This document shows positions 36,409 through 50,081 of a DNA stretch of 64,000 nt, piece after piece. Each line of letters opens with the position of its first letter. Positions within the stretch are counted from its first letter, which is position 1. Below the pieces are notes generated by a model, which was not told the DNA's origin, made no database searches, and saw only the letters and a list, made by a program, of their open reading frames with translations. Origin of the DNA: Escherichia phage ECML-10; the sequence record OL631479.1, one strand, 5' to 3'. A program made the position numbers and the translations under genes.

Positions 36409-36499
36409 TGTGTCTATCCTCTTTCTGCTACGTTTAAGGCGGCGGTAACCGCCTGTTTATGTTTTGTTGGTTAATTTTCGGGTATCGGTATAAATTAAA

Positions 36500-36715
36500 C
36501 TATGCTGTACGCTCAACTATAACAACGGCTTGAGGGATCTCACCTTCAACCACTATCAAGGCTTTTTTCTGCGTGATAGATATCTTTACCCGCTTCAGTG
36601 TGGCGGTAAAATCTTTCATTTCGTCACGTGGTGTTTTAGTGCAATGCCAGATCTCGGGCTTGCCGATCTGTAAGCTGCGCAAGAATTCCGTTTTACCTGT
36701 TTTATTCGTGATCAT
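36500..36715 (-). CDS. hypothetical protein
   Basis: ATG after AAGGTGA; 71 aa. Confidence 0.4.
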   Translation of the reverse strand: MITNKTGKTEFLRSLQIGKPEIWHCTKTPRDEMKDFTATLKRVKISITQKKALIVVEGEIPQAVVIVERTA

Positions 36716-36917
36716 TTGATTCACCTTATCCAATACCGTGGGAAGATAGGATCATGTTAGCCATAGTTGCAACCACTCCAACCGATAATGCCAGGCCAAC
36801 TACTACAACCGTGAAAATTTTATCTAACATGATTCTACCCTCATTAATGGGCGTTGCCTTATTGCCCCGCCCTACGAAATACATTCTACCTGATTTACAA
36901 TTGTTGTCAAACTATTT

Positions 36918-37096
36918 TAACGATAATCATCATATGCTTTATTGACCTGGCGAATATAACATTCAAAAGCTAGATCAATAGATTTATATTCACGGATATA
37001 TTCACCATAGGAAACCACATACATTTCTATAGCTTCCTCATATGCGAGGAGAATAGAATCTAAGCCTACGATCTCAGTCTTTGCAATAATAGCCAT
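36918..37096 (-). CDS. hypothetical small protein (59 aa)
   Basis: ATG after AAAGAGGATAAAAA preceded by GC hairpin; not in the 60-aa ORF track. Confidence 0.4.
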
Positions 37097-37172
37097 GATT
37101 TTTATCCTCTTTGTGGTTGGTGGGGCTTGTTGCCCCCATTTGATTTATATATTACAGTCTTATATGGTCATG

Positions 37173-37406
37173 TCAACTATTTTCAAAAAATTTTTCTGCT
37201 GTGATATTTTTCCCGGTAGGGTTCGCTACTTTTAAAATTCTATCATGCACCGGACGCCCGAAAGAATAAGATCCGTATACAGTAAACCAATAATTGCCGT
37301 CAGGCTGTACTATTACCGTCGCATATGGTACGCCTTTTTCGTTTTTGCTGACAAAATAGATCACATTGCCATTAATAGCCTCGGCGCGTTTAATTTGTTC
37401 CATCAT
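37173..37406 (-). CDS. hypothetical protein
   Basis: AGGTGA RBS; 77 aa. Confidence 0.45.
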   Translation of the reverse strand: MMEQIKRAEAINGNVIYFVSKNEKGVPYATVIVQPDGNYWFTVYGSYSFGRPVHDRILKVANPTGKNITAEKFFENS

Positions 37407-37469
37407 GATGATTCACCTATCTTTATTTTTTCATAGTTTCAGGAGGGGGCCTTTTCGGCCCCGCCAGGT

Positions 37470-37754
37470 TTATTTATTGATAGCGTGCAGCGGGAAAGGT
37501 ACGCCAGGTTGATAGATAACCTTTACAACCTCATCAGGACAAAAGAAATTGCAGAACTCACCGCAATAGGCCTCATCCTCTTTCAACTCTTCATCAACAT
37601 ACTCAAAAAAGTAGTCGATGCTTGGATAATCTTGACCAGGGTTATAATCAACCATAGTGAGGACCAGTTCAAGATCATTGCGGATGATATGCATACCAGC
37701 TTTTAAATACTTCGCTTCCATTTTTACTACATCGCCAGCGGTAACAATAGCCAT
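37470..37754 (-). CDS. hypothetical acidic protein
   Basis: start placed at internal ATG (MAIVTAGDVV) with RBS. Confidence 0.45.
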   Translation of the reverse strand: MAIVTAGDVVKMEAKYLKAGMHIIRNDLELVLTMVDYNPGQDYPSIDYFFEYVDEELKEDEAYCGEFCNFFCPDEVVKVIYQPGVPFPLHAINK

Positions 37755-37979
37755 GGTTTTAACTCCTGTTTCTGTTAATGATTGGAGGCATAACCCCCCT
37801 CGACAACTCTTATTATCCATATTGTAGGGCTTGATGCAAGTACTTCTTTAAAAAATTTTTAAGTGCCTTGGAGGCCGCTGTAACGCCAAAATAATAAAGG
37901 CCATGCAACCGCATAGCCTTTATGTGATTATATCGCTGCAGGCCCTGCTAGGGGCCTTATTTTGCATCATTTGCCGGAA

Positions 37980-38279
37980 CTATACAGAGAAAACATCGTT
38001 CACAATAGCGATCACAATGCCGCCCACCTTGTCACGGTCAACAATGCACAAATCACCATAGATCATGTGGTAGTCTGGATGATCTTTCACGGAATAGTCA
38101 ATGAGCGTTTTCTTGTCGTCCAGCTTTGTAACTTCCATTCTCATAACGATATGAGAATCATCAAAGGCATTATTCCGAAAAGTCATAGCCTGACCACCAT
38201 GGCACCCAGTGATCTCCACTTCCACACCGTCTACGATCTGACCATTAAAGAAATAAAGATTATTAGCCAGGATAAACAT
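37980..38279 (-). CDS. hypothetical protein
   Basis: ATG after AAGGAGTG RBS. Confidence 0.45.
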   Translation of the reverse strand: MFILANNLYFFNGQIVDGVEVEITGCHGGQAMTFRNNAFDDSHIVMRMEVTKLDDKKTLIDYSVKDHPDYHMIYGDLCIVDRDKVGGIVIAIVNDVFSV

Positions 38280-38324
38280 GTTTATCACTCCTTGTTAACT
38301 GCGTGTTATTTTTACCACGATTAA

Positions 38325-38376
38325 AATTTACTTTACTGATGGCCCTGGCGTCAAGGCCATCTAAAAATAAATTTAC
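38325..38376. repeat. conserved ~50-bp intergenic stem-loop element, copy 1
   Basis: TTTACTTTACTGATGGCCCTGGCGTCAAGGCCATCTAAAAATAAATTTAC; 7-bp stem GATGGCC/GGCCATC. Confidence 0.7.
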
Positions 38377-38573
38377 AGGCCTACAATCTCTTTGATTCGT
38401 TTAACTGCTGCCTCAGCGCCTTGGGGGTAGAAATTATGGTAACCGATCACGCGAGTGATACTAATTGCAGTTTGATGATCTTCATAATAGCCCTTGAAGA
38501 TTTCTTGACCGTCAATCAGCACGGCAATTTTTTCTTCTTTTTTGAAGTTAATAACGCGGATATTGTTGCTCAT
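38373..38573 (-). CDS. hypothetical protein
   Basis: AAAGGAGAAACAAA RBS; 66 aa. Confidence 0.5.
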   Translation of the reverse strand: MSNNIRVINFKKEEKIAVLIDGQEIFKGYYEDHQTAISITRVIGYHNFYPQGAEAAVKRIKEIVGL

Positions 38574-38830
38574 TTTGTTTCTCCTTTCTGGTTTTTGTGT
38601 TGGTGGGGATTAGCTCCCCGTTGATTATTATTATCCATATTTCGGACCGGATTGCAACACCCCGGAAGAAAAATTTTTTGAAAAAGTTAGGCCCCCAGGG
38701 ATCGGGGGCCGTTATCAGTTACTTACAGCGATAAAATACATCCCTACGCCTAACAATATTTCAAGGGCGATGATCTCAAGCCATACCATAACCCGGCGCA
38801 CCTTATCGGTGCGGGGCTTATCCTTGGTTG

Positions 38831-39078
38831 TCATCGTCTCCCCCTTTCATCCTGGTAGTAGTGACGTGGTTTACAATGGCCCCCAGGAGTACCATCACCA
38901 CGCACATCACAAGAAAAATTATCTCTGTCGTTGTTCGATCCATTGTTATAAAATTCCTTAAGATCAGGCCTGAAAATAAAGCGTTCGTTATTGAATCCAT
39001 CACGCCAGGCGGCTGGCTTCAAATCTTCATCAAAGGGATTAATTAACGTGGTATTATTTAAACGGCTGGCCCACATAT
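38831..39078 (-). CDS. hypothetical protein (frame choice uncertain)
   Basis: two overlapping minus-strand ORFs here (38831-39094 and 38818-39003); neither can be preferred with confidence. Confidence 0.3.
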
Positions 39079-39425
39079 TTTCTATTCCTCTCAAATAGGC
39101 GATCCGCCTCAGTTAAACAAATCTCATGGGCGTGATCTCTGGTTTTAGCTTCATCGAAAACCTGTTGTGCAAGGCTGCAGCGTAGGGAGACTGGAAGATC
39201 ACTATAATAGGCGTTGACAAATGTTTGCGCGTCATACAGGTCGGAAAATACTTTACCCTTTCTATTATCGCCTTTGTCAACAATTGCAAGGATAACAAGT
39301 ACAATAGTTGCAACCACCCCCAGGAAAATAGATATAATAAACCATAAAAAGGCGGATCTACCCATCTTGCCAGCGATCCAGGCGTTAAACAAGGCAACTA
39401 ATACGGCCAAAATAATAAATTCCAT
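39054..39425 (-). CDS. membrane protein (two predicted TM helices)
   Basis: start at MEFIILAV after AAAGAGG; hydrophobic helices FIILAVLVALFNAWIAG and FLWFIISIFLGVVATIVLVILAIV. Confidence 0.5.
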   Translation of the reverse strand: MEFIILAVLVALFNAWIAGKMGRSAFLWFIISIFLGVVATIVLVILAIVDKGDNRKGKVFSDLYDAQTFVNAYYSDLPVSLRCSLAQQVFDEAKTRDHAHEICLTEADRLFERNRKYVGQPFK

Positions 39426-39489
39426 TCTATGTACCTCTTTTGCAGTTCTGTTTAACAATAAGGCGGCAAATATGCCGCCTGTTACCTGA

Positions 39490-39870
39490 TTAAAAATTAT
39501 CGCCGTAAATCTTTCCGCTTTCTGCCCACACCACCACGCGGGGCATACTATCCCACACGTCTTGTTTTAGATTGAGCGCGTGCAATTCTTCGGTGGTGCC
39601 CATACCAGGCACGGGCTGATTGTATACTGCAAAACGACCACCTGCATAATCATAGGCCAGGGTTAAATCACACTGAATCATCTTTTTGATCATGGCGTTG
39701 AGCATAGCGTTAGCCGCATACTGGTCACGTTTTAAAGGCAACTCTTTGATTAGTTTGCGATAGTTTTCAATGTGATCGCACACTGTTTCACGTGGAAGAT
39801 CTTTCATATCCTCGCGAAAGGTAACCAGGTTAAACATAACGGTGTCAATAGCTTTAGTAGTGTTTTTCAT
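39490..39870 (-). CDS. hypothetical protein
   Basis: AAAGAGGAAAACATT RBS; 126 aa. Confidence 0.5.
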   Translation of the reverse strand: MKNTTKAIDTVMFNLVTFREDMKDLPRETVCDHIENYRKLIKELPLKRDQYAANAMLNAMIKKMIQCDLTLAYDYAGGRFAVYNQPVPGMGTTEELHALNLKQDVWDSMPRVVVWAESGKIYGDNF

Positions 39871-39960
39871 AATGTTTTCCTCTTTGTTTTGTGTGGGGCA
39901 AACGTCTTGCCCCCCTTGAGTTTTAATATAGCAAGTTTTTAGATTATTGCAACACTTTAT

Positions 39961-40137
39961 TTATGAAAAACTCATCTCTCCATATTCATCCACATCAAAC
40001 CGCCAATCATTGGCCTCAATAAGGCCGATCAGGTTTTCGGTAGTGAACTGTTCTAGATAGGCCTCCTCCAGGTCTACGTAAACCTTGCGGGATAGCTCCC
40101 GTACCGTCTCGGTGATCAGCTCTTCCAGGTCTTCCAC
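39961..40137 (-). CDS. hypothetical small acidic protein (58 aa, GTG start)
   Basis: first ORF downstream of the minus-strand promoter at 40185-40212; weak RBS. Confidence 0.3.
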   Translation of the reverse strand: MEDLEELITETVRELSRKVYVDLEEAYLEQFTTENLIGLIEANDWRFDVDEYGEMSFS

Positions 40138-40158
40138 TTTGTTTTCTTTGTTAGTGGC

Positions 40159-40212
40159 GGGAAGTTTTCCCGTTTACATGCTTAAGTATACTTATCGAGA
40201 TTTACTTGTCAA
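40159..40212 (-). promoter_or_regulatory. sigma70-like promoter with palindromic operator-like leader
   Basis: minus strand TTGACA-16 nt-TATACT followed by GTAAACGGGAAAACTTCCC (palindrome GGGAA-aac-TTCCC). Confidence 0.55.
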
Positions 40213-40462
40213 CACTATTTTTTAAATTATTGTGGCGCAAAATGTTTAAAATCTCTTCAACGTCATCAACACGGCGGCAATTTTTAAACGCTACCAATTG
40301 CCCCAAGATTTTGATCACTGGGCGGCCTTGCCAGTGCCCCTGGAGAAAGCGCGCTTTAACTTTATCGGTGGAACTATCACGCCACCAAACTGCTTTATTA
40401 TTGCAGTAGTAAAAATTATTCAGGACAACATCAACTTTATCAAAATTTTTTAATTTACGCAT
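40202..40462 (-). CDS. hypothetical protein
   Basis: GAAGGAAGGAG RBS; 86 aa. Confidence 0.5.
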   Translation of the reverse strand: MRKLKNFDKVDVVLNNFYYCNNKAVWWRDSSTDKVKARFLQGHWQGRPVIKILGQLVAFKNCRRVDDVEEILNILRHNNLKNSVDK

Positions 40463-40707
40463 GGCGTTTACTCCTTCCTTCTTGCTTTGATGTGGTTAGT
40501 ATATCCGGACTGTTCCAAGGTGTCAATCTTTAAATAAAATCACTGTTAATGATATTTTTAACACCATAAAACGGCCCTAGGTGATGTTTTCAGGTCAATA
40601 AAGGGGATTGCATAGGTAGGGGCTTTTGTGGCGTTTGTGGGGCCAACCAGGGGCGCTATTCGTAGGATAGAAATAAAAAGCCCCGCACAATGGCGGGGCG
40701 TTGGTTG

Positions 40708-40905
40708 CTATTTGTCTTTATGGCGGTACCGTTCCGCCTGTCGTTCACGTTCCAAAAGCAGGCCCGGCAGTTTACGATCATAATGATTCCGCCAGATCTT
40801 CCCAAATCTTTTTGGCTTATTTAGTTTATTGTTACGCTGGCGGCGTTCCGGCAGCTCTTCGGAATCATGAGATCGCTTTACAATCTTTTCAAAATTAATC
40901 TTCAT
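40708..40905 (-). CDS. small highly basic protein
   Basis: ATG after AAGGGGGG; Arg/Lys-rich (RRQRNNKLNKPKRFGKIWRNHYDRK). Confidence 0.45.
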   Translation of the reverse strand: MKINFEKIVKRSHDSEELPERRQRNNKLNKPKRFGKIWRNHYDRKLPGLLLERERQAERYRHKDK

Positions 40906-41243
40906 ATATTCCCCCCTTGCTAACTTCAATATTGGCCTGAATAGCCCGGATACGGCGCTTTATAACTTCCTGATCTGTGTGATCGTATCCCCAAAAGTCT
41001 ACAATTTTTGCGCCCCCCGCTTCCAGGCGGTACAGTGTTTCCTGCATTTTGTAAGCCGGGATCGGTCGCGGTGTTACTTGGTCACCTTCTTTATTTTTAT
41101 ACTTTATAATATAATCTTCATTATCGTTGAATGTCCAAAATGGATATTCTGCAAGGGCGGTACTTTCCTTTTTATCCTGGATCTTGTTTACAATTAAAGC
41201 CGTAGCAATAGCGCCAATAATAAAACTAGCCCCGCTGATCATG
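40895..41243 (-). CDS. membrane-anchored protein
   Basis: ATG after AAAGGAGAAAG; N-terminal TM helix ISGASFIIGAIATALIV. Confidence 0.5.
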
Positions 41244-41317
41244 TACTTTCTCCTTTCATTGTGTTGATAAACTATCTTTATAGATGGCCCTGCTACCAGG
41301 ACCACCGAAAAACCAGC

Positions 41318-41563
41318 TTATTTGACGATACCGACAAAACAGATCCCGCCTTCCCCTATATAGGCAATATCGGTAATTTGATAATTTGTCAAGATCCGCG
41401 TGTTCAGATCATTAATAAAATCGGTCATCGCGTTGGTGTAGTTGTCTTCCGTGTCTAAGGCATAATCCCAGGTGTAAACCTTTTTACGTCCGAAGCCTTT
41501 TACCATGATACGGGCGCTTTTGGTGTTGGTAGGGGCATAATATTTGGTGATTAGTGCTGCCAT
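41318..41563 (-). CDS. hypothetical protein
   Basis: ATAGGAG RBS; 81 aa. Confidence 0.45.
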   Translation of the reverse strand: MAALITKYYAPTNTKSARIMVKGFGRKKVYTWDYALDTEDNYTNAMTDFINDLNTRILTNYQITDIAYIGEGGICFVGIVK

Positions 41564-41604
41564 GGTTTTAACTCCTATGCATTAGTTCAGTGTTAACAGT
41601 ATAA

Positions 41605-41656
41605 CGTTTACTTTATTGATGGCCCTGGAGTCAAGGCCATCTAAAAATAAATTTAC
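41605..41656. repeat. conserved ~50-bp intergenic stem-loop element, copy 2
   Basis: TTTACTTTATTGATGGCCCTGGAGTCAAGGCCATCTAAAAATAAATTTAC. Confidence 0.7.
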
Positions 41657-41994
41657 TCGTTTTCTTCCAGTTCTGCAAGCTCTTCTTTCACTTCTTCAAG
41701 CTCTGTATGCAATTCCTGGTATTCTTCATCGTCCTCAATATCCAGGCTGTCGATGTAGTCGCTAAATCCGCAGCGGTAAGCGATAGGATCTAGCTCCTTG
41801 AGGATACGCGACGGAAGAAAAGAAATGTTTCCGATCATAATTTCGCCGTAGATCTCGTCTAACCATTCATCATAGTTTTCGTCGTACTTGTCCTCGTCGA
41901 TTTCAAAGTTATCGATCTTGTTCTCAAGGTCTGCGATCTGTTTTTTCAGCGCGGCGATCTGCATAGCTTTTTCTGCGGCGGTCATAGTAGTCAT
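41653..41994 (-). CDS. hypothetical acidic coiled-coil protein
   Basis: AAAGGAGAAAACACT RBS; 113 aa, Glu/Asp-rich. Confidence 0.5.
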   Translation of the reverse strand: MTTMTAAEKAMQIAALKKQIADLENKIDNFEIDEDKYDENYDEWLDEIYGEIMIGNISFLPSRILKELDPIAYRCGFSDYIDSLDIEDDEEYQELHTELEEVKEELAELEENE

Positions 41995-42019
41995 AGTGTT
42001 TTCTCCTTTTGTGTGCTCT

Positions 42020-42073
42020 GGGAAGTTTTCCCGTTTACGTGTTTAAGTATATCGATCTAAGTTAGTTTGTCAA
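42020..42073 (-). promoter_or_regulatory. sigma70-like promoter with palindromic operator-like leader (paralog of 40159-40212)
   Basis: minus strand TTGACA-16 nt-TATACT followed by GTAAACGGGAAAACTTCCC. Confidence 0.55.
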
Positions 42074-42193
42074 TTAAAAATTTAAGAAAAATTTTGCAAA
42101 ACTGTTAGCGCTACTCATTAACATTTGCGCCAGGATGTAACCGACAACGCAAACGATAATAGTTATCTTTGTGTATTGGCGTGTAGTGCTCAT
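42074..42193 (-). CDS. small hydrophobic peptide (39 aa)
   Basis: ATG after AAAAAGGGGG; TM-like ITIIVCVVGYILAQMLM; not in the 60-aa ORF track. Confidence 0.35.
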   Translation of the reverse strand: MSTTRQYTKITIIVCVVGYILAQMLMSSANSFAKFFLNF

Positions 42194-42225
42194 CTTAAAG
42201 CCCCCTTTTTCGCTTAGTTGAGATT

Positions 42226-42276
42226 AGTTTACTTTATTGAAGGCCCTGGAGTCAAGGCCATCTAAAAATAAACTTA
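42226..42276. repeat. conserved ~50-bp intergenic stem-loop element, copy 3
   Basis: TTTACTTTATTGAAGGCCCTGGAGTCAAGGCCATCTAAAAATAAACTTAG. Confidence 0.7.
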
Positions 42277-42678
42277 GTAAGTTTTCAGTACTTTACCGTC
42301 CAACCTGTCAAGCTGGATCTCGATAGCTGCAGAAAACCTATTGTAAACCACATCGCCCATAGAATCCAACCAGTCTATGACATTATACACTTGCTCTTTG
42401 TTCTTGCAGGTCCGGATCCGTTTCATGATGTAAGCCGGATCAATATTGGTACTCTCGTTGGTGTTCCCCTGTACCTGGTTTGCCGTATTAGTTACATCTT
42501 TAATGGCCTTTACCACCACCTGGAATGGCTTTAAGGTGCCTTTTGCGTTCATCTCACGCGCTTTTGCGGCGCGGTTGTTATATGTTACACAACGGCGGCA
42601 AATGTTGACCAAATGCATGTCAATAATTTTTTCATCGTTTGCCAGTTCGTTCATGATGCGGCGTACGTTCTTATTCAT
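42274..42678 (-). CDS. hypothetical protein
   Basis: CAGAGGAAAAGCT RBS; 134 aa. Confidence 0.5.
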   Translation of the reverse strand: MNKNVRRIMNELANDEKIIDMHLVNICRRCVTYNNRAAKAREMNAKGTLKPFQVVVKAIKDVTNTANQVQGNTNESTNIDPAYIMKRIRTCKNKEQVYNVIDWLDSMGDVVYNRFSAAIEIQLDRLDGKVLKTY

Positions 42679-42757
42679 AGCTTTTCCTCTGTGTTGGCGG
42701 GATGTTCCCCGCCTTTTGTGTCTAGTTTACTTAAATTTTGCAGCGTGTCAATGATTT

Positions 42758-43156
42758 TTATTCGTGGGCGCATGTTACAATGTGCTTTTTATAGCCTAGG
42801 TGGTCAGCAAGTGCCGACAAAAACTCTTCTTCGTAGATCCAGCCGTCGGCAGTGATCCCCATAGCATTTAATGCGCTCTCAAGTGCTGCGTTAGCTTTAT
42901 CATAACCGTGACCGCCCGCCTTGCCGCCAGTATAGCCGTACTTATTGTTCTTGTTGTCGTGTATCCAAAAAACGCAGTAGTGAGTGTTCCCGCTGGCGGC
43001 GGCATAATACCGGATCTCAGCTACTTCGTGCAAATTATTGTCATCGTCCAGGCCCACCAGATTATAAGCCTTGTAAAATCCACGATCACGGCGGCAGTTC
43101 TTGACATCAGAAAAAGAAAAGTCCGCATTATCAAAATTAAAGGTAGTGGTTTTCAT
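42758..43156 (-). CDS. hypothetical protein
   Basis: AAGAGGATAAAATC RBS; 132 aa. Confidence 0.5.
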   Translation of the reverse strand: MKTTTFNFDNADFSFSDVKNCRRDRGFYKAYNLVGLDDDNNLHEVAEIRYYAAASGNTHYCVFWIHDNKNNKYGYTGGKAGGHGYDKANAALESALNAMGITADGWIYEEEFLSALADHLGYKKHIVTCAHE

Positions 43157-43220
43157 GATTTTATCCTCTTAGTGTCTTTTGTGCTTTTAGTGTATTTTGT
43201 GTCAGGCCATATGTCAATAC

Positions 43221-43418
43221 TTATTTTTTATTAAACCAGTGGTTGATCTGGCCTTTTGTCAGGGCGCAACGATTAAGTTGGTGCCGGGTATAGCTCTGAC
43301 CGCGACGGAATTTATAAAGGCCTTGCCCGTTGTTGATGGTTACGTCCACCTGGCAAACCATTTGATCGGTGACCACCTGGCGAGTGCTGCGACGTACTTT
43401 GATTCCGTAGGCGTTCAT
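43221..43418 (-). CDS. small basic protein
   Basis: ATG after AGAGAGGATAAAAAAATC; 65 aa. Confidence 0.45.
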   Translation of the reverse strand: MNAYGIKVRRSTRQVVTDQMVCQVDVTINNGQGLYKFRRGQSYTRHQLNRCALTKGQINHWFNKK

Positions 43419-43497
43419 GATTTTTTTATCCTCTCTGTTAATTAGTGTGGTGTTGTTCACCTTGCGAGGATAAGAATAACAAGAACTGTCCGAGCTG

Positions 43498-43657
43498 TCA
43501 ACCATTAGTTAAAATTATTTTTGCCCCTGCCAGGTTAACCATCATTTTTTCGTACTCTTCTTTATGTTCCAACGCTCCCGCCATAGCCTTTTCAACCAGG
43601 GCGATAGCCTCAGCGTCATTAATAGCTACATTTTCCAGGGGGATTATATTACCTTTC
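43498..43657 (-). CDS. hypothetical small protein (53 aa)
   Basis: ATG after GGAGGTACAAAA; not in the 60-aa ORF track. Confidence 0.4.
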
Positions 43658-43818
43658 ATTTTTGTACCTCCCCTTCAATTGTTACCTATCCTATAGCATA
43701 GGCCCACCAGGTTTACAAGCCTTCATTCTCTCCTGCCTGGTCAGTTAGGTCCTGCCAGGCTGGCCCCGCCAGGTTGCAGCGGTTAGCGCATCAGGTTAGA
43801 AAAATTTTTTGAAAAGTG

Positions 43819-43950
43819 TTGACAGCGGCCCCGCCAGGTGGCACAATATACCTATCGAAAGGACGGCAGGCACCGGTGACGGGGGAGACAACCACCGGGG
43901 ATGGGCGCTGCATAAAATGAGAACGGTTATCATTATCATTTAAAAATTTA
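43819..43950 (+). ncRNA. candidate small RNA unit 1 (promoter plus ~90-nt structured transcript)
   Basis: AT-rich UP-like tract, TTGACA-17 nt-CACAAT, then CCGGUG stem with loop containing GGGAGACAAC, ending GAGAACGGTTATCATTATCATTT; no ORF. Confidence 0.35.
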
Positions 43951-43961
43951 TGCAAAAAATC

Positions 43962-44075
43962 CTTGCTTTCTTTGTCCTGTGTGATACTATAATAACAAGC
44001 CGGGGCAACAGGGGCCGGGAGACAATCACCGGGCCTGCCCGTTATTCTGCAAACGAGAATGATTATCATTCAAAA
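43962..44075 (+). ncRNA. candidate small RNA unit 2 (paralog of unit 1)
   Basis: TATAAT at 43988, then GGGAGACAATCACCGGG and GAGAATGATTATCATT, homologous to unit 1. Confidence 0.35.
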
Positions 44076-44179
44076 TTCTAAATGAGAACTCCTCGCATTT
44101 AATAAATTTAATTAGCATGCTAATTACCCTCCGTAACAATTTCCTATAAAACAGTATCCCATAAAATATTCCCATATAG

Positions 44180-44640
44180 AAATTTTAAAAATCCATTTCT
44201 GAAAACGAAAAATCGATTTCGTCCCCAAAAATTTCAGGTCGAGATCCGGAACGATTTCCAGAAAATCCGATTCAGAAAACGAAAAACAGATCGAGTACTG
44301 AGAAATTTATCGAGAAAAATTTTCAGAAAATCCAAGCCATGAAATGAAAAGTAGATCGAGTACTTGGAAAGCTGCACCGCAACTTCAAGATAGTGGTTAG
44401 ATTGTTACCATAGAAGGTTAAGGGCAAGTGGAGGAAGTTCTAGTAGAGGGAGGTTAGCATGTGTGGGAAATCTATAATGGTGGCCTGGAATATGGTGCAA
44501 ACGATAGGATGAGTTATTCAGCTTGTCGCGCCTACTCTGAAAAATCCATTTTAGTTTTCGATCCATTTTCTGATTTTCTAAGAATTTTAAAATATCCAGC
44601 CCGGTGAAATATCAAAAGGAGGAAATCCATTTTAGAAATC
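44180..44640. repeat. iteron-like degenerate direct-repeat region
   Basis: repeated CAGAAAATCC(R)ATT, GAAAACGAAAAA and AGATCGAGTACT motifs in an AT-rich ORF-free stretch. Confidence 0.6.
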
Positions 44641-44675
44641 CCCCTTACACTTGATATGCCAGGAATTTTCAAGTA

Positions 44676-45005
44676 TCAGCTGTCTTTGTTTTTAGGTTTG
44701 TACATGCGTAAAGGTATGGTCTTTGTAACATTCCATTTCCTCAATCCTTCCCAGCTCCAGTTGTGGGCGTGGTATCCGGTTATGCATGCACTACTGGAGT
44801 GATCGTAAGCATAAGAGAACGCTAAGCGCACCAGGTGGGGCCAGTCCTTCCATGGTTGTGGACCGTAAGCTTTTCTCCAACACCGACACAAACTAAATGT
44901 CTCAAGGATAGGAAGGATAACAAACCCATACACTGTCACCAAAATAGTCAGTGCAATGATTGTCAGGAACACATACCCTGCAGTTGAAATGATGATCTCT
45001 GTCAT
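44676..45005 (-). CDS. membrane protein
   Basis: AAAGGGGA RBS; N-terminal TM helices. Confidence 0.5.
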   Translation of the reverse strand: MTEIIISTAGYVFLTIIALTILVTVYGFVILPILETFSLCRCWRKAYGPQPWKDWPHLVRLAFSYAYDHSSSACITGYHAHNWSWEGLRKWNVTKTIPLRMYKPKNKDS

Positions 45006-45199
45006 TTGTCGTCCCCTTTCTTACGGATATAAATGTGAGAACCTGCCTGTATATAAATTTCTCGACCATCTTCTGCGAAGATGTGGAATACACGGTCACC
45101 TTCGTACTCAATACGAGATATCTTCATAATGGTCTTTCCACCTGGGATACGGATCTCGTCCCCCACAGCGATGTTCCATGCAGATTTAAGCTTAAACAT
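45002..45199 (-). CDS. hypothetical protein
   Basis: ATG after GGAGGGTGCAG; 65 aa. Confidence 0.45.
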   Translation of the reverse strand: MFKLKSAWNIAVGDEIRIPGGKTIMKISRIEYEGDRVFHIFAEDGREIYIQAGSHIYIRKKGDDK

Positions 45200-45437
45200 C
45201 TGCACCCTCCTTTGGGAACTTGAACTCTGGCATAGCCATATACGCTACAACAGGGTTGTGATCAAAGTAGAACTGACCGTTAATTATCCCGGTTTTACTC
45301 ACATAGTTACCAGATCCTGCAAGAACAACCTCGCAAGCTCCGAAATCTACATTGCCATCCTCATCAGCCATGGCTACGATATACTTTCCTAGAGGCATGT
45401 TTTTAACGCCGTCTACAAATGTCCACCCTTTGTTCAT
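45192..45437 (-). CDS. hypothetical protein
   Basis: CAGGAGATAAAGT RBS; 81 aa. Confidence 0.45.
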   Translation of the reverse strand: MNKGWTFVDGVKNMPLGKYIVAMADEDGNVDFGACEVVLAGSGNYVSKTGIINGQFYFDHNPVVAYMAMPEFKFPKEGADV

Positions 45438-45457
45438 ACTTTATCTCCTGCACTTTC

Positions 45458-45790
45458 TTAAGGTAACCAGTAAACAATCTCGCCTTTCAGCTTCATGTCG
45501 TTTCCAACATAAATTTCCCAGCCATCCATCTTAGCAACTGTAGGCCCAAAGTCATCCGCACCCCTTACCTCTTTCCAGGCTCCGTAGTCAGGTTGCCAGA
45601 TATAGAATCCACCTTCTTTGTCCCATGCTCCGTACACTACGTTTAACAGGTTTCCCATTGCAACAATGGTGGGCCGTGGGAATAATACATCTACAGATGC
45701 GCCACAATTTCGGGTATCTTTTAAGTTGCAATCCCAAAAGATGTCTGCCAGTGTGGCGGCGATAGCTTTACGTCTTTCTAATGTTACCAT
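45458..45790 (-). CDS. hypothetical protein
   Basis: 110 aa ORF. Confidence 0.45.
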   Translation of the reverse strand: MVTLERRKAIAATLADIFWDCNLKDTRNCGASVDVLFPRPTIVAMGNLLNVVYGAWDKEGGFYIWQPDYGAWKEVRGADDFGPTVAKMDGWEIYVGNDMKLKGEIVYWLP

Positions 45791-45799
45791 GTATCATAC

Positions 45800-45991
45800 T
45801 CACTTGTTGTTAATAAGTTCTAAAACTTTCTGTCTTACTTTGTCAAGGTCTGTTGATTCAAAAACTGTGCGATATCCCCAACTTTGCCCATAGGAGTGAC
45901 TGCAATCTCCGTAGCACCATTGCTCAATTTGATAGTATTCAAGGAAGGGGTGCTGTCTAACTATGATGCCATCCCGGTTAAAAATTACCAT
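45800..45991 (-). CDS. hypothetical protein
   Basis: 63 aa ORF. Confidence 0.4.
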   Translation of the reverse strand: MVIFNRDGIIVRQHPFLEYYQIEQWCYGDCSHSYGQSWGYRTVFESTDLDKVRQKVLELINNK

Positions 45992-46054
45992 AATACGTCG
46001 CTCTCTGTTAGTCTGTGCGTATATTATACACTGTAGTTTTCAGATGTCAATCTT

Positions 46055-46306
46055 TTACAGGTTACTCCAGTATGCTCGGCATTTACATTTCGGGCAATGA
46101 GGCTCTTTTATGTAATAACCATCAGTCTTTGGAACACTTTTTGGTGCAGTTTTAAGATTGTACCGAGTAAAACACCGGAAGCAGGTTACCTCTCCAACCT
46201 GTTGATCGTTTATCCACTCGCCAGAGTAAAGCTCTCTCTTGTTTCTCATAATTCTCTCCCAAATCCTCTGCAATCTTATACCAAAATCTCCAGCCAGAAA
46301 GCACAC
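46055..46306 (-). CDS. small Cys-rich (zinc-ribbon-like) protein
   Basis: CFRCF...CPKCKC; start uncertain. Confidence 0.4.
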   Translation of the reverse strand: MCFLAGDFGIRLQRIWERIMRNKRELYSGEWINDQQVGEVTCFRCFTRYNLKTAPKSVPKTDGYYIKEPHCPKCKCRAYWSNL

Positions 46307-46499
46307 GGGAACACTTTGATGATTGAATCTTTACCTGGTTCAGCAGTTCTTTTTCCGTAGGGTAGGTAGAAATACCCTCCTGCAGATTCGAACACAGCCC
46401 CTTCGGTTGTATCTATCACAGCCAGAATTAAGATTTTAGTCTCCATAGTGCTCCCTCTCTCAATCGTTGTGGTGACTATACCATCTCAAAAACCAGCTG

Positions 46500-46958
46500 T
46501 CAACACTTTTTGTACTCCACCACGATAATATTCATATCAAAAGTGGCAAGGTTAATAACGTCCTCTACGTGCTCCCACTTCAAACCGCCTATGCCGCACC
46601 CGATCTTAGGGATGTAGAATGGTAAAGTCGATCCACTGAATACCTCATTGACTAGCTCAAAGCCTTTCAGGATTGAGAAATATTCAGCATTAGGCCCTGG
46701 GTAGAACTGAGTATACAGATTGATTCCGTAGACAATACCTCTCGGAGATAAGTGCTCCCATCGGGAGAACGCACCCAGTTTACTTAGGCAACCATATCTA
46801 GTCTCTTTGTCAGCTGCCAATGCTTGAGGGAACTCACGGGAAATCTGTTTTGCTATCCCCTTGCCCATTGTGTGGAAGCAGTTACAACCGTGGATCAGGT
46901 GACCAGCACCGCTCTTAAAAAGGGAGATTAAATCTCCCTCTACAGTATCAATAATCAC
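46500..46958 (-). CDS. macrodomain protein, DarG/TARG1-type (putative ADP-ribosyl hydrolase)
   Basis: GTG start overlapping upstream stop gives MIIDTVEGDL...; motifs HGCNCFHTMGKGIAKQISREFP and PKIGCGIGGLKWEHVED closely match recalled DarG macrodomain segments. Confidence 0.7.
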   Translation of the reverse strand: MIIDTVEGDLISLFKSGAGHLIHGCNCFHTMGKGIAKQISREFPQALAADKETRYGCLSKLGAFSRWEHLSPRGIVYGINLYTQFYPGPNAEYFSILKGFELVNEVFSGSTLPFYIPKIGCGIGGLKWEHVEDVINLATFDMNIIVVEYKKC

Positions 46959-47373
46959 GGTATGCCAGCTCCTCTTCCGCAATTTCAAAAAACTCAGTCC
47001 AGCACTGTGGCATATTGGAGTTACCGAAGTGGCTTTCATAGTAAAGGTTCTCACCACTTGGAAGATAGAAATCTGTTACCTCATAGAATCCACAATCGTC
47101 GCACTCGCCTTCTTCAAACTTAGCCTCAACCTTAATACCGAGGAAGGTGAAAAGTTTATGGATATCTTCAGTTTCGAACTCCCAGTGAATGTTGTTTTCC
47201 GCATCGGTGTAGAACTGGATCAGCAGACCATTGTCCAGTTTACCAAAATACTCTGTGAAGTAACTTCCTTCCCAGAAATCTTTATGACAAATAATATCCA
47301 TGCGTTTGCCCATAATAATGGTGTGAGCGTTTTGGGCATCGTCACGAATCAGTTTTGGCATTTCATAGATCAT
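46948..47373 (-). CDS. hypothetical acidic protein
   Basis: CCGGAGAACTAAG RBS; 141 aa. Confidence 0.45.
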   Translation of the reverse strand: MIYEMPKLIRDDAQNAHTIIMGKRMDIICHKDFWEGSYFTEYFGKLDNGLLIQFYTDAENNIHWEFETEDIHKLFTFLGIKVEAKFEEGECDDCGFYEVTDFYLPSGENLYYESHFGNSNMPQCWTEFFEIAEEELAYRDY

Positions 47374-47441
47374 CTTAGTTCTCCGGGTTCAACAGGTGGT
47401 GGTGCTACAGGAAGATCATAAAACATGGCTATCACAGTCTC

Positions 47442-47639
47442 TTACACAGGAATTGCTTCAAATAGACCGTTATCTATACCGTCCTTCAGATAGAGATTAT
47501 ATTCTATGTCGGTATCTGTATAAAGGGCAGCATCCAGCATTCTATCCGTGAGTCCATCCATCGGGTGGAGAAACCACCACCCACGCCAGTCAAAGTAACA
47601 GCCTGGTGCATCTTCTCTTACACGGATTCGATAAATCAT
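47442..47639 (-). CDS. hypothetical protein
   Basis: ACAGGAGG RBS; 65 aa. Confidence 0.45.
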   Translation of the reverse strand: MIYRIRVREDAPGCYFDWRGWWFLHPMDGLTDRMLDAALYTDTDIEYNLYLKDGIDNGLFEAIPV

Positions 47640-47735
47640 GGGCAGTGGCCTCCTGTTAGCTATACATCCCAGTTTTCTTCGTTCATCACGTCCTCCCGTT
47701 CTATGAAGTTATAATTGCACACCTTTCAACCTGTG

Positions 47736-48152
47736 TCAACAGAAAACTTCAACAAATTCTTCCACAGTTTTAATGTCGTGGGAAAAAGGTTTACGGCTAT
47801 AGCGGGCAATAGCACTATCAACCACCGCCCGGTACTCCAAATCTTCAGAATATTTCATGAAGCATTGCAGCGTCTCTGGGCAGATAGCTAAATAGCTCCA
47901 CCACCCCTCTTCAGATTGGTAGTCGAATCCCATACTCTCCAACCATGAAGCATATACTCCTGCACCCTCTAGCCAGTGGGTATTTTCATCAAGAAATTTA
48001 TTCACCGACATGTGTGCTTCCAGGCACTCGTCAAGCTCTTTTCCGTTAACCAGCCATGCACTGACTGTGGCGCATCCGAGGTCTACAGATTGAGTTGGCA
48101 GGTTGTATTGGTCATAGTTCTCAGGTTTAACAATGATATCTTCTAATGTCAT
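47736..48152 (-). CDS. hypothetical acidic protein
   Basis: GGAGATCTGAAAA RBS; 138 aa. Confidence 0.45.
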   Translation of the reverse strand: MTLEDIIVKPENYDQYNLPTQSVDLGCATVSAWLVNGKELDECLEAHMSVNKFLDENTHWLEGAGVYASWLESMGFDYQSEEGWWSYLAICPETLQCFMKYSEDLEYRAVVDSAIARYSRKPFSHDIKTVEEFVEVFC

Positions 48153-48214
48153 TTTTCAGATCTCCTTATACAAAAATGCCCCACCCTTTCGGGCAGGGCT
48201 ATGTTAGTTAGGTG

Positions 48215-48838
48215 CTAAAAGTATTCATAGAGGTATCCATCTGGGGCTGGAATTTTTTCATGAATGTAGTAATCAACACATATTCCGGTTTCTCTTCTGC
48301 AAGAATTGTGGGATACCCATTCTTTGAGAACGTTGCCATTCATGTCCAGCCTCCTTACATTTTTACACCGTCTACCGCTGGTGCTTCTATGCAACAGAAT
48401 ATCCTCTGTCTGCTTGTCTTTATTTTCTCCCCAAGTCGTTAAACGGATATTATCAAAAGAGTACCCTTTGAAATCATCTATCCTGTCACAAGAAGGCTTT
48501 TTCCTTTTGTCGTATCCGCTGGCTACCCACTGGTCATACAACTCTTTGTAACCGTTTAGGTATAGCCACTCCTTAAACTCTTTTTTGGTGTAAGTCGGAG
48601 GTGGGTGACCTCTCTTCTTACTGTTGCACTTTTGAGTCTTGTACAACACGCGGATCACACCTTTTTCTGAAGAGTCGTGGGAAAATTGGTCAGCCTCCCT
48701 GCTGGCCTTCTTGCAACACTCTTTGCACTTATTAAGATGACCGTCAGACATCTTTGGGTGTTTGTAGAACTCGGAGAGGTTTTTCACCTCTCCGCACTTG
48801 ATGCACCTCTTACAATGCGTGGATTCTACTTTTGCCAT
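48215..48838 (-). CDS. zinc-finger protein, possible nuclease or DNA-binding protein
   Basis: start at [16 protein letters not shown] after GGTGGG; CxxC...CxxCC cluster; function not recognisable. Confidence 0.4.
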
Positions 48839-50081
48839 ATTGCAAACCCACCGGAGCGAAAGGTATGTCATCACAGAAGTCGTACTGTGCTGGATTCTGA
48901 TCCATCGGGTCATCTTCCTCATCATTTACAGGAGGGGCGTCTACAGTGTTTTGCTGTGGAGCTGCTTCCTGTTTGGCAGCCTGAGGTTCTTGATGGTCAG
49001 TTGACCCAGCACCGTTCTTGATCCAATCGTACAACGGCTCAGCCAGATTAGTCAAGACATCTTTTGCTTCTACAGTAATTGCCGCTGCAAAATCATCAAC
49101 TTTCGTTTTCTTGTCAATACGGCGACAAGCGTTCAACACTGCATTACCGACACTGGCACCTACTTCATCTTCAGTTCGGTTGGTGGCTTGAGCATACTCT
49201 TTCTTAAGCTCAATGGTGACTACGTGCAGTGTTTTAGCCACGCCCAGTGGGTCGTCTACCTTAAACCCGCGATCCAGGATGATCTGCAACGCATTGATGC
49301 TATGCCCCGTTTCCACACCGATAGGGTCGTAAGAGGATTTACGCTTGCCACCGGAGCCTTGAGTGCCGTTCTCTGCCTTAGGAGGATAGGCCTTGAAACC
49401 ACTGATAATGTTTCCAGTGTCTTTGTCAACAATGGCTGCAACACGACCACCTACCACCAGGTCTTTAAGCTGCTCATCAGTGACAACCATAGCACCTTCG
49501 CCAATCTTGTGGTCATTAACAGTAACCACGTTGCCAACAATCTGAGTCACATCACCATAGATGCGTAAAACGTCCTGATTGGCATTCTGCTGAGGTTTCT
49601 GCTTCTGGCCTTGTGATTGTGCACCTTGTTGCTGTTTTTGCTGCTGAGTCGCTGCTGGAGCCTCTCCTGCACCCAGCTTGACCATCTTAGCCAGTGAGCC
49701 TTTGTAATAGGTCTTACCGTTATGCTCGTTTGCCTTCAAAGGGATATTTACGATCCATCCTGGCGTTACGGTTTCCCACTTGTCATCAATCTTAACAGAG
49801 ACAGAGTCTTGATGCCCCGGTTTAAGCAGCTTATCACCCATGCTGATCCAGACTTCTTCACCGCCTTGAAGCAGGTTATCAGAGGAATCCAGTTCAGAAA
49901 TCAGTAAAGAGATAGTGTGGCTGGATTCAATTTTCTTACCTTGCCACACGGTGGTTTTAATACCTGTTGCAGGATCAGCCCCTTTAATAGGTTTAATGCT
50001 AACACGCTTGATCATGCCGTGAGCCAGTAAAACAGTTTCACGCGGATTCATCGGGTTAGCGAATTGTTGAATAACGCTCAT
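48810..50081 (-). CDS. putative ssDNA-binding protein (SSB-like acidic tail)
   Basis: AAGGAGA RBS; Gln-rich linker; acidic C-terminal region ...[23 protein letters not shown] resembling the bacterial SSB DDDIPF tip, followed by a 15-aa extension. Confidence 0.45.

What the first reader, a model, noticed from the sequence alone, without database searches (positions are those of the whole stretch)
46500..46958. Phage-encoded DarG/TARG1-type macrodomain, a candidate counter-defence against DNA ADP-ribosylation
The ORF carries HGCNCFHTMGKGIAKQISREFP and PKIGCGIGGLKWEHVED, which match my recollection of the DarG antitoxin macrodomain (VNTVNCVGVMGKGIALQF..., PPLGVGNGGLDWEDVE). DarG reverses DarT ADP-ribosylation of thymidine in ssDNA, and DarTG acts as an anti-phage system. 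A free-standing phage copy would plausibly neutralise DarT-like toxins or other ADP-ribosylating defences. It sits among small genes of unknown function.
Basis: partly seen in the sequence, partly recalled or inferred. Interest (0 to 1): 0.75.

Follow-up and report, generated by a model that had tools for sequence, protein, structure and literature searches.

The report
Phage macrodomain, T4 AdfM homologue
This rV5-like E. coli phage gene encodes a small stand-alone ADP-ribose-removing enzyme, a clear relative of the T4 protein Tk.4/AdfM that lets T4 escape the DarTG2 defence system.

Summary
Window 46500-46958 (- strand) is a 152-aa ORF carrying both quoted motifs. It passes the Pfam Macro threshold. 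It folds with high confidence (pLDDT 96.5) into a macrodomain whose nearest solved structures are TARG1, Poa1p, DarG, BT1257 and SCO6735.

The window is a Vequintavirus, 98.4% identical to phage JES2013, where this gene is annotated 'phosphatase' or 'macro domain protein'.

The decisive result is that the protein is 39% identical over its full length (E=6e-41) to T4 Tk.4. A 2025 preprint named Tk.4 AdfM because deleting it sensitises T4 to DarTG2.

It is not a DarG:
- It has no DarT-binding C-terminal domain and no darT neighbour.
- The catalytic Lys of DarG (K80) and TARG1 (K84) is a Gln, present in 230 of 230 aligned homologues.
- The same Gln is essential in SCO6735, which removes DarT-made thymidine ADP-ribose.

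The chimallivirus protein also called AdfM is a separate, Lys-type lineage much closer to DarG.

Best reading: an anti-DarT2 thymidine de-ADP-ribosylase of the Gln type. This is inferred by homology and is untested for this phage. It is a new member of a known kind, of modest interest.

The parts
46500..46958 (-). Macrodomain gene: 152 codons plus stop, GTG start at 46958. Free-standing ADP-ribosyl hydrolase candidate and homologue of T4 Tk.4/AdfM.
   Evidence: Translation. Pfam Macro above threshold. PHROG 335. AF2 pLDDT 96.5. Foldseek to TARG1, Poa1p and DarG. 39% identity to T4 Tk.4.
46851..46892 (-). Residues 23-36, HGCNCFHTMGKGIA: first active-site loop. H23 and N26 correspond to SCO6735 H24 and N27 and to DarG N22. 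It also holds the GxG phosphate-binding turn.
   Evidence: Alignments. Across family members, N26 is present in 233/233, H23 in 229/233 and G24 in 232/233.
46704..46721 (-). Residues 80-85, NLYTQF. Gln84 (codon 46707-46709) occupies the position of the catalytic Lys of DarG (K80) and TARG1 (K84), and of the essential Gln85 of SCO6735.
   Evidence: Alignments. Q84 is present in 230/230 and N80 in 231/231. SCO6735 Q85A and Q85E are inactive (PMC9411070).
46584..46610 (-). Residues 117-125, PKIGCGIGG: second glycine-rich diphosphate-binding loop. G120 and G122 correspond to SCO6735 G126 and G128. The position of TARG1 D125 is Gly here.
   Evidence: Alignments. G120 is present in 230/230 and G122 in 229/230.
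46969..46974 (-). Shine-Dalgarno-like GAGGAG, 10 nt upstream of the GTG start, lying inside the 3' end of the upstream ORF.
   Evidence: Read from the sequence.
46948..47373 (-). Upstream 141-aa ORF of unknown function (phrog_8157). Its stop overlaps the macro start by 11 nt, so it is probably co-transcribed and translationally coupled.
   Evidence: No similarity to T4 Vs. The single-sequence AF2 model is unusable, pLDDT 49.
47711..47739 (-). Sigma-70-like promoter (TTGACA-17-AATTAT with TG, 10/12) upstream of the three-gene run 47639 to 46500. It is a candidate promoter for the macro transcription unit. A weaker alternative lies at 47524-47496.
   Evidence: Consensus scan only. Promoter-like sites are enriched in 30-50 kb: 71 found against 45.4 +/- 7.1 expected.
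46475..46503 (-). Sigma-70-like promoter (TTGACA-17-TATAGT with TG, 11/12) overlapping the macro stop codon. It probably drives the next small ORF, 46446-46276.
   Evidence: Consensus scan only.

Best explanation
The gene encodes a stand-alone, catalytically competent macrodomain ADP-ribosyl hydrolase of the ALC1-like (TARG1/DarG/Poa1p-like) class. It belongs to the very large phage 'Tk.4-like' subfamily.

Proposed mechanism. The gene sits in a host-RNAP-type (sigma-70-like) promoter-rich block of small genes. This would fit early expression, but timing was not measured. The enzyme binds the ADP-ribose attached by a host DarT2-type toxin to thymidine in single-stranded phage DNA and hydrolyses the ribose-base bond. 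That releases ADP-ribose, restores a replicable template, and neutralises DarTG2 abortive defence. It does this without the toxin-binding C-terminal domain that the bacterial antitoxin DarG uses.

Catalysis is predicted to be lysine-independent, as proposed for SCO6735. Gln84, held by Asn26, would position the distal ribose, and a backbone-held water would act.

What is shown here: the macrodomain fold, the class, the conserved active-site signature, and homology to T4 Tk.4. What is shown elsewhere: T4 Tk.4 is required against DarTG2, and the Gln-type enzyme SCO6735 removes dT-ADPr. What is inferred: that this Vequintavirus protein does the same thing.
For: Pfam Macro hit above the gathering score. 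AF2 model with pLDDT 96.5 and pTM 0.91. The top Foldseek PDB hits are all ALC1-like macrodomains: TARG1 (E=4e-10, TM 0.78-0.85), Poa1p, Taq and Mtb DarG, BT1257 and SCO6735. The family profile against PDB gives BT1257 9e-17, SCO6735 1.7e-16, Mtb DarG 2.5e-16 and TARG1 1.5e-14.

The protein is 39% identical over its full length to T4 Tk.4, E=6e-41, and both fall in PHROG 335. In T4, tk.4 was the single significant hit in a DarTG2 transposon screen, and its clean knockout sensitised T4 to DarTG2; it was named AdfM (preprint 10.1101/2025.11.20.689424).

The active-site signature is conserved in 234 family members: H23, G24, N26, N80, Q84, G120 and G122. These map onto SCO6735 residues H24, V25, N27, Q85, G126 and G128. 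In SCO6735, N27S, Q85A/E and G128E lose or strongly reduce dT-ADPr hydrolysis, and the enzyme rescues DarT toxicity (PMC9411070). That paper argues that thymidine-ADPr reversal is a unifying activity of the ALC1-like class.

The gene is single-copy and retained across the subfamily: at least 112 of 119 near-identical records, and 177 phage records at 60% protein identity or more. Some family members are fused to NADAR, the guanine-ADPr DNA hydrolase domain.
Against: There is no experiment on this protein or on any Vequintavirus homologue. The preprint built a Bas54 (Vequintavirinae) library, but its text does not report testing it against DarTG2.

The T4 evidence is genetic and comes from a preprint. 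The text read reports no in-vitro assay of Tk.4 and infers enzymatic ADP-ribose removal by analogy.

At 39% identity, substrate preference could differ. The 5-residue longer 'mobile loop' with K89, which SCO6735 uses as a DNA clamp, is absent here. By my count from the sequence the protein has 14 K/R and 15 D/E, so it is roughly neutral rather than strongly basic; no electrostatic surface was computed.

The match to DarG HMMs is weak compared with chimallivirus AdfM: 48 bits against 133 bits. Macrodomains of this class also act on protein-linked ADPr, ADPr-1''-phosphate and O-acetyl-ADPr. Iyer et al. 2022 (PMC9503650) favoured soluble ADPr derivatives as substrates for phage macro domains. The Macro-NADAR fusions seen here lie in contexts that look like giant viruses, not coliphages.
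Confidence: 0.6

Rival explanations
1. It reverses ADP-ribosylation of another macromolecule rather than, or in addition to, thymidine in DNA. Candidates are protein or RNA ADP-ribosylation installed by other host defence ADP-ribosyltransferases, or by a phage-encoded ART whose marks need trimming. DarT2 reversal would then be a side activity or absent.
For: The closest structural neighbour is TARG1. SCO6735 is reported to remove ADP-ribose from both protein and DNA substrates, and the paper describes TARG1 as having a similarly wide substrate range (PMC9411070). The protein lacks the SCO6735 DNA-clamp loop.
Against: No ART, DarT or sirtuin gene was found among the neighbours or among the Pfam families listed for the window's larger ORFs. 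The only phenotype known for a close homologue is against DarTG2.
Confidence: 0.2
2. It is a small-molecule ADP-ribose-derivative hydrolase, as the database label 'phosphatase' implies. Possible substrates are ADP-ribose-1''-phosphate (Poa1p-like), O-acetyl-ADP-ribose, or ADPr-based by-products or signals made during infection. It would feed ADP-ribose/NAD+ salvage or remove immune messengers.
For: It is annotated 'phosphatase', from the A1pp motif, in T4, JES2013 and PHROG 335. Yeast Poa1p is the second-best PDB hit. The Poa1p residues probed by the deposited H23A and S30A mutants align with H23 and T30 here. Iyer et al. 2022 proposed soluble ADPr derivatives as preferred substrates for phage macro domains. 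In some Vibrio phages the homologue lies next to a ribose-phosphate pyrophosphokinase gene.
Against: The T4 homologue has a DarTG2-specific phenotype. At the Gln84 position Poa1p has Ser by my recollection of its sequence; this was not verified with a tool. Poa1p F152 aligns with Gly here. T30 is variable in the family, being T in 149 of 234 members. No RNA-repair (Tpt1/KptA, ligase) or NAD-salvage Pfam family was listed for the window, though 4 of the 29 families were not shown.
Confidence: 0.12
3. It is a catalytically dead ADP-ribose reader or sponge, because the catalytic lysine of DarG and TARG1 is missing.
For: K80/K84 is replaced by Gln, and TARG1 D125 is replaced by Gly.
Against: SCO6735 has the same Gln and no Asp, yet is reported to be more active than DarG or TARG1 on dT-ADPr DNA, and Q85A abolishes its activity. 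The Gln is present in 230 of 230 homologues together with Asn26, a pattern typical of an active site. T4 Tk.4 carries the same Gln and protects against DarTG2.
Confidence: 0.03

Closest known systems
T4 Tk.4 = AdfM(T4), anti-DarT factor macrodomain (Humolli et al., bioRxiv 10.1101/2025.11.20.689424)
   Same: It is a free-standing macrodomain of about 150 aa, 39% identical over the full length (E=6e-41), and falls in the same PHROG 335. It has the same HGCNCFHTMG, NLYTQF and (P)xIGxGIG motifs, including Gln at the DarG K80 position. It is encoded in a run of small same-strand genes and its start overlaps the upstream gene.
   Different: It comes from a different phage family (Straboviridae, not Vequintavirinae) and has unrelated neighbours (vs and tk.3 there; unknown PHROGs here). 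The anti-DarTG2 phenotype is shown only for T4.
Streptomyces coelicolor SCO6735 and Bacteroides BT1257 (Gln-type ALC1-like macrodomains; PDB 5e3b, 2fg1)
   Same: These are stand-alone macrodomains with Gln in place of the catalytic Lys, and with the Asn that locks it, the His and the Gly-rich loops all conserved. They give the best profile-to-PDB scores (9e-17 and 1.7e-16). SCO6735 removes DarT-made thymidine-ADPr and rescues DarT toxicity.
   Different: Identity is only 26-28%. The phage family lacks the 5-residue longer mobile loop, including K89, that defines the SCO6735 subclass. SCO6735 and BT1257 are cellular proteins, and SCO6735 is DNA-damage regulated; they are not phage proteins.
DarG (DarG2) antitoxin of DarTG2 (PDB 5m3i, 5m31/5m3e, 7omu)
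   Same: It has a macrodomain of the same class and is the best single-sequence PDB hit (E=5.9e-7). The DarG HMMs are hit over their macro part. Asn22 is conserved.
   Different: There is no C-terminal DarT-binding domain (152 aa against about 330-400) and no darT neighbour. Lys80 is replaced by Gln. The NCBIfam DarG score is 46 bits against a cutoff of 250.
Chimallivirus AdfM (PhiKZ gp104; Cell Rep 2026, PMC13309987)
   Same: It is a phage-encoded stand-alone macrodomain with the same proposed job, removing DarT2 ADP-ribose from DNA. For gp104 this is shown in vitro and in vivo.
   Different: It is only 23% identical (BLASTP E=3e-5). It keeps the DarG-type Lys (PTKD, K78) and scores 133 bits on the DarG model, against 48 bits here. 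It is imported into the phage nucleus. It looks like an independent, much more DarG-like lineage that received the same name.
Human TARG1/OARD1 and yeast Poa1p
   Same: TARG1 is the top Foldseek hit (TM 0.78-0.85), with Poa1p next. They share the overall fold and loop architecture. The His of the HxCN(C) motif is shared with Poa1p.
   Different: The TARG1 K84/D125 dyad is Q84/G124 here. Poa1p F152 aligns with Gly. Identities are 22-26%.

Membership tests
Macro domain superfamily (Pfam PF01661) | Profile match above the curated threshold | tested here: met
   27.4 bits against a gathering score of 22, E=3.4e-6.
Macro domain superfamily (Pfam PF01661) | Three-layer alpha/beta/alpha macro fold with glycine-rich ADP-ribose-binding loops | tested here: met
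   AF2 pLDDT 96.5. 172 PDB matches at E<=1e-3; of the 50 listed, all are macrodomains except a set of computationally designed serine hydrolases. The GKG and GCGIGG loops are conserved.
ALC1-like (TARG1/DarG/SCO6735/Poa1p-like) macrodomain class | Closest sequence and structural neighbours belong to this class rather than to MacroD, PARG or viral nsP3 types | tested here: met
   The best hits by sequence, profile and fold are TARG1, Poa1p, DarG, BT1257 and SCO6735. MacroD-like and viral nsP3 macros score far lower.
T4 Tk.4-like phage macrodomains (AdfM of T4) | Full-length homology to Tk.4 with the family signature H-G-x-N / N-x-Y-T-Q / G-x-G | tested here: met
   39% identity, E=6e-41, 150 of 152 residues aligned. 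Same PHROG 335. Signature residues invariant.
T4 Tk.4-like phage macrodomains (AdfM of T4) | Needed for phage growth on DarTG2-expressing hosts | not testable with these tools
   Shown only for T4. No published data were found for Vequintavirinae.
DarG (DarG2) antitoxin | Catalytic Lys80, with Asn22, in the macrodomain | tested here: not met
   Asn is conserved as N26, but Lys80 aligns with Gln84 in three independent alignments.
DarG (DarG2) antitoxin | C-terminal DarT-binding domain; full-length match to the DarG model | tested here: not met
   The protein has 152 aa. NCBIfam NF048014 gives 46.4 bits against a cutoff of 250 and covers only positions 3-139 of 338. The PADLOC DarG model is covered over 4-141 of 329. 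No neighbour matches the rest of the model.
DarG (DarG2) antitoxin | Encoded in an operon with darT | tested here: not met
   Ten flanking ORFs gave no DarT or ART hit in Pfam, PHROGs or PADLOC. None appeared among the Pfam families listed for 60 window ORFs.
TARG1/OARD1 | Lys84/Asp125 catalytic dyad | tested here: not met
   Q84 aligns with K84. In GCGIGGLKW against GCGLDRLQW, Gly aligns with D125.
SCO6735/BT1257 subclass | Gln at the Lys position, locked by the conserved Asn | tested here: met
   NLYTQF aligns with NMIGQH, and HGCN with HVCN.
SCO6735/BT1257 subclass | Mobile loop five residues longer, carrying K89 | tested here: not met
   There is a 5-residue gap in the query, T4 Tk.4 and other phage members relative to SCO6735 and BT1257. 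The defining feature is taken from PMC9411070.
Poa1p (ADP-ribose-1''-phosphate phosphatase) | Residues probed in the deposited mutant structures: H23, S30 and F152 | tested here: inconclusive
   H23 aligns with H23, S30 with T30 (variable in the family) and F152 with Gly. The Poa1p structure paper was not in the library.
Chimallivirus AdfM (PhiKZ gp104-like) | Close DarG2-like macrodomain with N23 and K78 | tested here: not met
   23% identity. Gln instead of Lys. 48 bits against 133 bits on the DarG model.

The most novel reading that the evidence does not exclude
The Tk.4-like phage macrodomains, including this Vequintavirus protein, may be a mechanistically distinct lineage of nucleic-acid de-ADP-ribosylases. 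They would be lysine-independent (Gln-type), would lack both the DarG toxin-binding domain and the SCO6735 DNA-clamp loop, and would have arisen independently of the Lys-type chimallivirus 'AdfM'. If so, phages have recruited anti-DarT2 macrodomains at least twice. The Gln-type enzymes may also have a wider substrate range than thymidine-ADPr, for example RNA-linked or soluble ADPr species. That would help explain why the family is so common: about 5.5% of all phage records, and 1305 clusters at 50% identity.
Probability: 0.3. Interest if true: 0.45.

Novelty: new member of a known kind. Interest (0 to 1): 0.3.

Why it matters
If the inference holds, rV5-like (Vequintavirinae) phages, which are often considered for therapy and for biocontrol of E. 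coli O157, carry a built-in antidote to DarTG2. That bears on host-range prediction.

The more general point is that two proteins now both called 'AdfM' are different lineages with different active-site chemistry: Gln in T4 and rV5, Lys in PhiKZ. This matters for annotation and for mechanistic work on DNA de-ADP-ribosylation.

The finding does not open a new question. Phage macrodomains are abundant and long annotated, and their anti-DarT2 role has already been demonstrated in two other phage groups.

Tried and rejected
- DarG membership was rejected. The score is far below the NCBIfam cutoff, the C-terminal domain is missing, there is no darT, and Lys80 is Gln.
- I looked for a 'split DarG', with the DarT-binding domain on a neighbouring ORF. 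Ten flanking ORFs gave no PADLOC, Pfam or PHROG hit of that kind.
- I asked whether the translationally coupled upstream ORF (46948-47373) is informative. It belongs to an unknown PHROG, has no similarity to T4 Vs, which holds the same position in T4, and its single-sequence AF2 model is unusable at pLDDT 49.
- I looked for a partner NADAR (AdfN, reported in Bas60-62), an ART or NAD-salvage genes in the window, by scanning 60 ORFs of 110 aa or more against Pfam. None appeared among the 25 families shown, but 4 further families were not displayed, so this is not a strict negative.
- I tried to find where the Macro-NADAR fusion proteins come from. The contigs are short or look like giant-virus DNA (DnaJ, RNA polymerase Rpb5), so they give only general support.
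- The Poa1p structure paper was not found in the library.
- No tRNA genes were found in the window, and no Rfam match was found between 43.0 and 48.5 kb.
- No published DarTG2 sensitivity data were found for Vequintavirinae.

Full report
**What is in the sequence**

The minus strand of window 46500-46958 is an intact ORF of 152 codons plus a stop. The longest ORF in this frame starts further upstream, at 47057. The biologically sensible start is the GTG at 46958, for three reasons:
- It has a GAGGAG 10 nt upstream, and the ORF overlaps the stop codon of the preceding ORF (46948-47373) by 11 nt.
- It is the start annotated in the near-identical phage JES2013, ORF194.
- Homologues, including T4 Tk.4, start at the same residue with MII/MIV.

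**Where the window comes from**

A 4-kb stretch around the gene is 98.4% identical to Escherichia phage JES2013 (Vequintavirus, rV5-like). It is 90-99% identical to 118 of the 119 matching records, 112 of which cover at least 80% of the stretch. In those records the gene is annotated 'phosphatase', 'macro domain protein' or 'hypothetical protein'.

The gene lies in a long run of small, same-strand ORFs, downstream in the direction of transcription from the replication genes (DNA polymerase, primase-helicase, rIIA/rIIB). All ten flanking ORFs belong to PHROGs of unknown function, apart from an endonuclease VII-like protein and a small zinc-binding protein.

Sigma-70-like promoter matches are enriched on this strand: 71 found against 45.4 +/- 7.1 expected in 30-50 kb. 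This would fit expression by host RNA polymerase, but it is only a consensus scan and timing was not measured.

**Is it a macrodomain?**

Yes.
- Pfam Macro is matched above the gathering score, 27.4 bits against 22.
- PHROG 335 is matched at E=8e-59.
- An AlphaFold2 model built on 55 homologues has pLDDT 96.5 and pTM 0.91.
- Its best Foldseek matches in the PDB are human TARG1 (E=4e-10, TM 0.78-0.85), yeast Poa1p, the T. aquaticus and M. tuberculosis DarG macrodomains, Bacteroides BT1257 and Streptomyces SCO6735.
- A family profile against PDB sequences ranks BT1257 (9e-17), SCO6735 (1.7e-16) and Mtb DarG (2.5e-16) about equally, ahead of TARG1 and Poa1p.

All of these belong to the ALC1-like (TARG1/DarG/Poa1p-like) class.

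**The decisive relative**

A tblastn search of the phage collection found homologues in 2814 of 50,697 records. Among them are the T-even phages, where the hit falls on gene tk.4 next to vs. I fetched T4 tk.4. The window protein is 39% identical to it over the full length (E=6e-41), with the same motifs, and both fall in PHROG 335.

A 2025 preprint on phage transposon sequencing (10.1101/2025.11.20.689424) reports three things about tk.4:
- It was the single significant hit when a T4 library was grown on a DarTG2-expressing host.
- A clean tk.4 knockout sensitises T4 to DarTG2.
- The authors named it adfM, for anti-DarT factor macrodomain.

The same preprint built a library in Bas54, a Vequintavirinae phage. 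Its text does not report a DarTG2 test for that phage. I found no other data on DarTG2 and Vequintavirinae.

**Active site: not DarG-type but Gln-type**

In three independent alignments DarG Asn22 aligns with Asn26. The catalytic Lys of DarG (K80) and TARG1 (K84) aligns with Gln84, in the motif NLYTQF. TARG1 Asp125 aligns with Gly.

This is not an oddity of one sequence. I combined the 92 word-indexed homologues with 142 representatives from an exhaustive profile search, giving 234 proteins. In these, Gln84 is present in 230 of 230 aligned sequences, Asn26 in 233/233, His23 in 229/233, Asn80 in 231/231, and Gly120 and Gly122 in 230/230 and 229/230.

The same Gln is found in SCO6735 (Q85) and BT1257. 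For SCO6735 the published work (PMC9411070) reports that:
- Q85A and Q85E are inactive.
- N27S is almost inactive.
- G128E has substantially reduced activity.
- The enzyme removes DarT-made thymidine-linked ADP-ribose faster than DarG or TARG1.
- It rescues DarT toxicity.

The authors proposed a lysine-independent, water-mediated mechanism. They argue that thymidine-ADPr reversal is a unifying activity of the ALC1-like class. The phage family keeps the equivalents of H24, N27, Q85, G126 and G128. It lacks the five-residue longer 'mobile loop' (with K89) that defines the SCO6735 subclass. It is therefore a third variant: Gln-type with a short loop.

**Relation to DarG and to the other 'AdfM'**

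The protein is not a DarG.
- It has 152 residues and covers only the macro part of the DarG models. NCBIfam gives 46 bits against a cutoff of 250. PADLOC gives 48 bits over positions 4-141 of 329.
- No neighbour matches the DarT-binding domain, DarT or any ART.

The chimallivirus AdfM (PhiKZ gp104; PMC13309987) removes DarT2 ADP-ribose in vitro and protects PhiKZ in vivo. It is a different lineage:
- It is only 23% identical to the window protein.
- It keeps the Lys, in PTKD, at K78.
- It scores 133 bits on the DarG model.

Two unrelated sub-lineages of the same class have thus received the same name.

**Breadth of the family**

An exhaustive profile search of 1.84 billion cluster representatives gave 1305 proteins at E<=1e-30 and 9855 at E<=1e-10. 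Nearly all of the top 150 are stand-alone proteins of about 145-200 aa.

A few are fusions: Macro-NADAR, Macro-NADAR-DUF4326 and DUF4326-Macro. NADAR is the domain that removes ADP-ribose from guanine in DNA, as in DarG1 and AdfN (PMC11825919). The fusion is therefore compatible with a shared role in reversing base ADP-ribosylation. However, the contigs I could inspect look like giant-virus DNA rather than coliphage DNA, so I give this little weight.

Iyer et al. 2022 (PMC9503650) had already noted that 41% of myoviruses encode a macro domain. They leaned towards soluble ADPr derivatives as substrates.

**Most likely function and its rivals**

The best-supported reading (confidence 0.6) is that the protein is a free-standing thymidine-ADPr DNA hydrolase that counters DarT2-type toxins, as its T4 homologue does, using SCO6735-like lysine-independent chemistry.
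- Shown here: the fold, the class, the conserved active-site signature and the homology.
- Taken from the literature: the T4 phenotype and the SCO6735 activity.
- Inferred: transfer of that function to this phage.

The rivals are:
- A different or broader macromolecular substrate, protein or RNA ADP-ribosylation (0.2).
- A small-molecule 'phosphatase/deacetylase' role, as the database label says (0.12).
- A non-catalytic reader (0.03), which the invariant Gln/Asn pair and the SCO6735 and T4 data argue against.

**Verdict**

Two corrections apply. The protein is not DarG-type in its catalytic residue or architecture. The idea is no longer novel, because macrodomain anti-DarT2 factors were reported for T4 (2025 preprint) and for chimalliviruses (2026). 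This gene is also already annotated as a macro domain protein in public records. It is a new, untested member of a known kind, and interest is modest.

Noticed in passing
window 44170-44640: A stretch with no convincing ORF carries three degenerate direct repeats of about 62 nt, spaced 65-74 nt apart (44170-44231, 44244-44305, 44309-44370; 61-76% identity). They share the core AAATCC(A/G)-TTC-GAAAACGAAAAA, and a further 16-nt copy lies at 44623-44638. This could be an iteron-like, origin or regulatory array. There was no Rfam match and no tRNA.
   Followed up: partly
window 30000-50000, - strand (e.g. 46050-46023, 46503-46475, 42073-42046, 40526-40498, 40212-40185, 36910-36883): Near-consensus sigma-70 promoters with a perfect TTGACA -35 box recur between the small ORFs: 71 promoter-like sites against 45 +/- 7 expected. 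One is a perfect 12/12 match at 46050-46023. Terminator-like hairpins are also enriched, 33 against 16 +/- 5. This suggests many short host-RNAP-driven transcription units.
   Followed up: partly
proteins P0111, P0165, P0197, P0185 (loci L005-L009): Members of the same Gln-type macro family occur fused to NADAR and/or DUF4326 domains (Macro-NADAR, Macro-NADAR-DUF4326, DUF4326-Macro). The contigs that could be read carry DnaJ or RNA polymerase Rpb5 genes and many ORFans, which suggests large eukaryotic viruses.
   Followed up: partly
phage records NC_055800.1 (Vibrio phage Brizo, 102895-103305) and ON922990.1 (Vibrio phage VPMCC14): In these Vibrio phages the macro homologue lies next to a gene annotated 'ribose-phosphate pyrophosphokinase'. 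This hints at a possible link between some family members and ADP-ribose/NAD+ salvage rather than DNA de-ADP-ribosylation.
   Followed up: no
window 46948-47373 (- strand): This 141-aa ORF (phrog_8157, unknown function) has a stop that overlaps the macro start codon by 11 nt. It has no Pfam or PADLOC hit, is unrelated to T4 Vs, and its single-sequence AF2 model has pLDDT 49.
   Followed up: partly
window 48215-48925 and 48810-50081 (- strand): The endonuclease VII-like gene (PHROG 1035; annotated start about 48841) overlaps the 3' end of a 423-aa ORF of unknown function (phrog_4477). That ORF has a long Q/K-rich low-complexity middle and a faint MukE/JetB-like match (E=0.015). A strong terminator-like hairpin follows at 48199-48178.
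   Followed up: no
window 1-29000 (+ strand): The left half of the window encodes a nucleotide-metabolism block: class I and class III ribonucleotide reductases with activase, ThyX, PhoH and a Clp protease-like protein. It lies on the opposite strand from the small-gene block that holds the macro gene.
   Followed up: no
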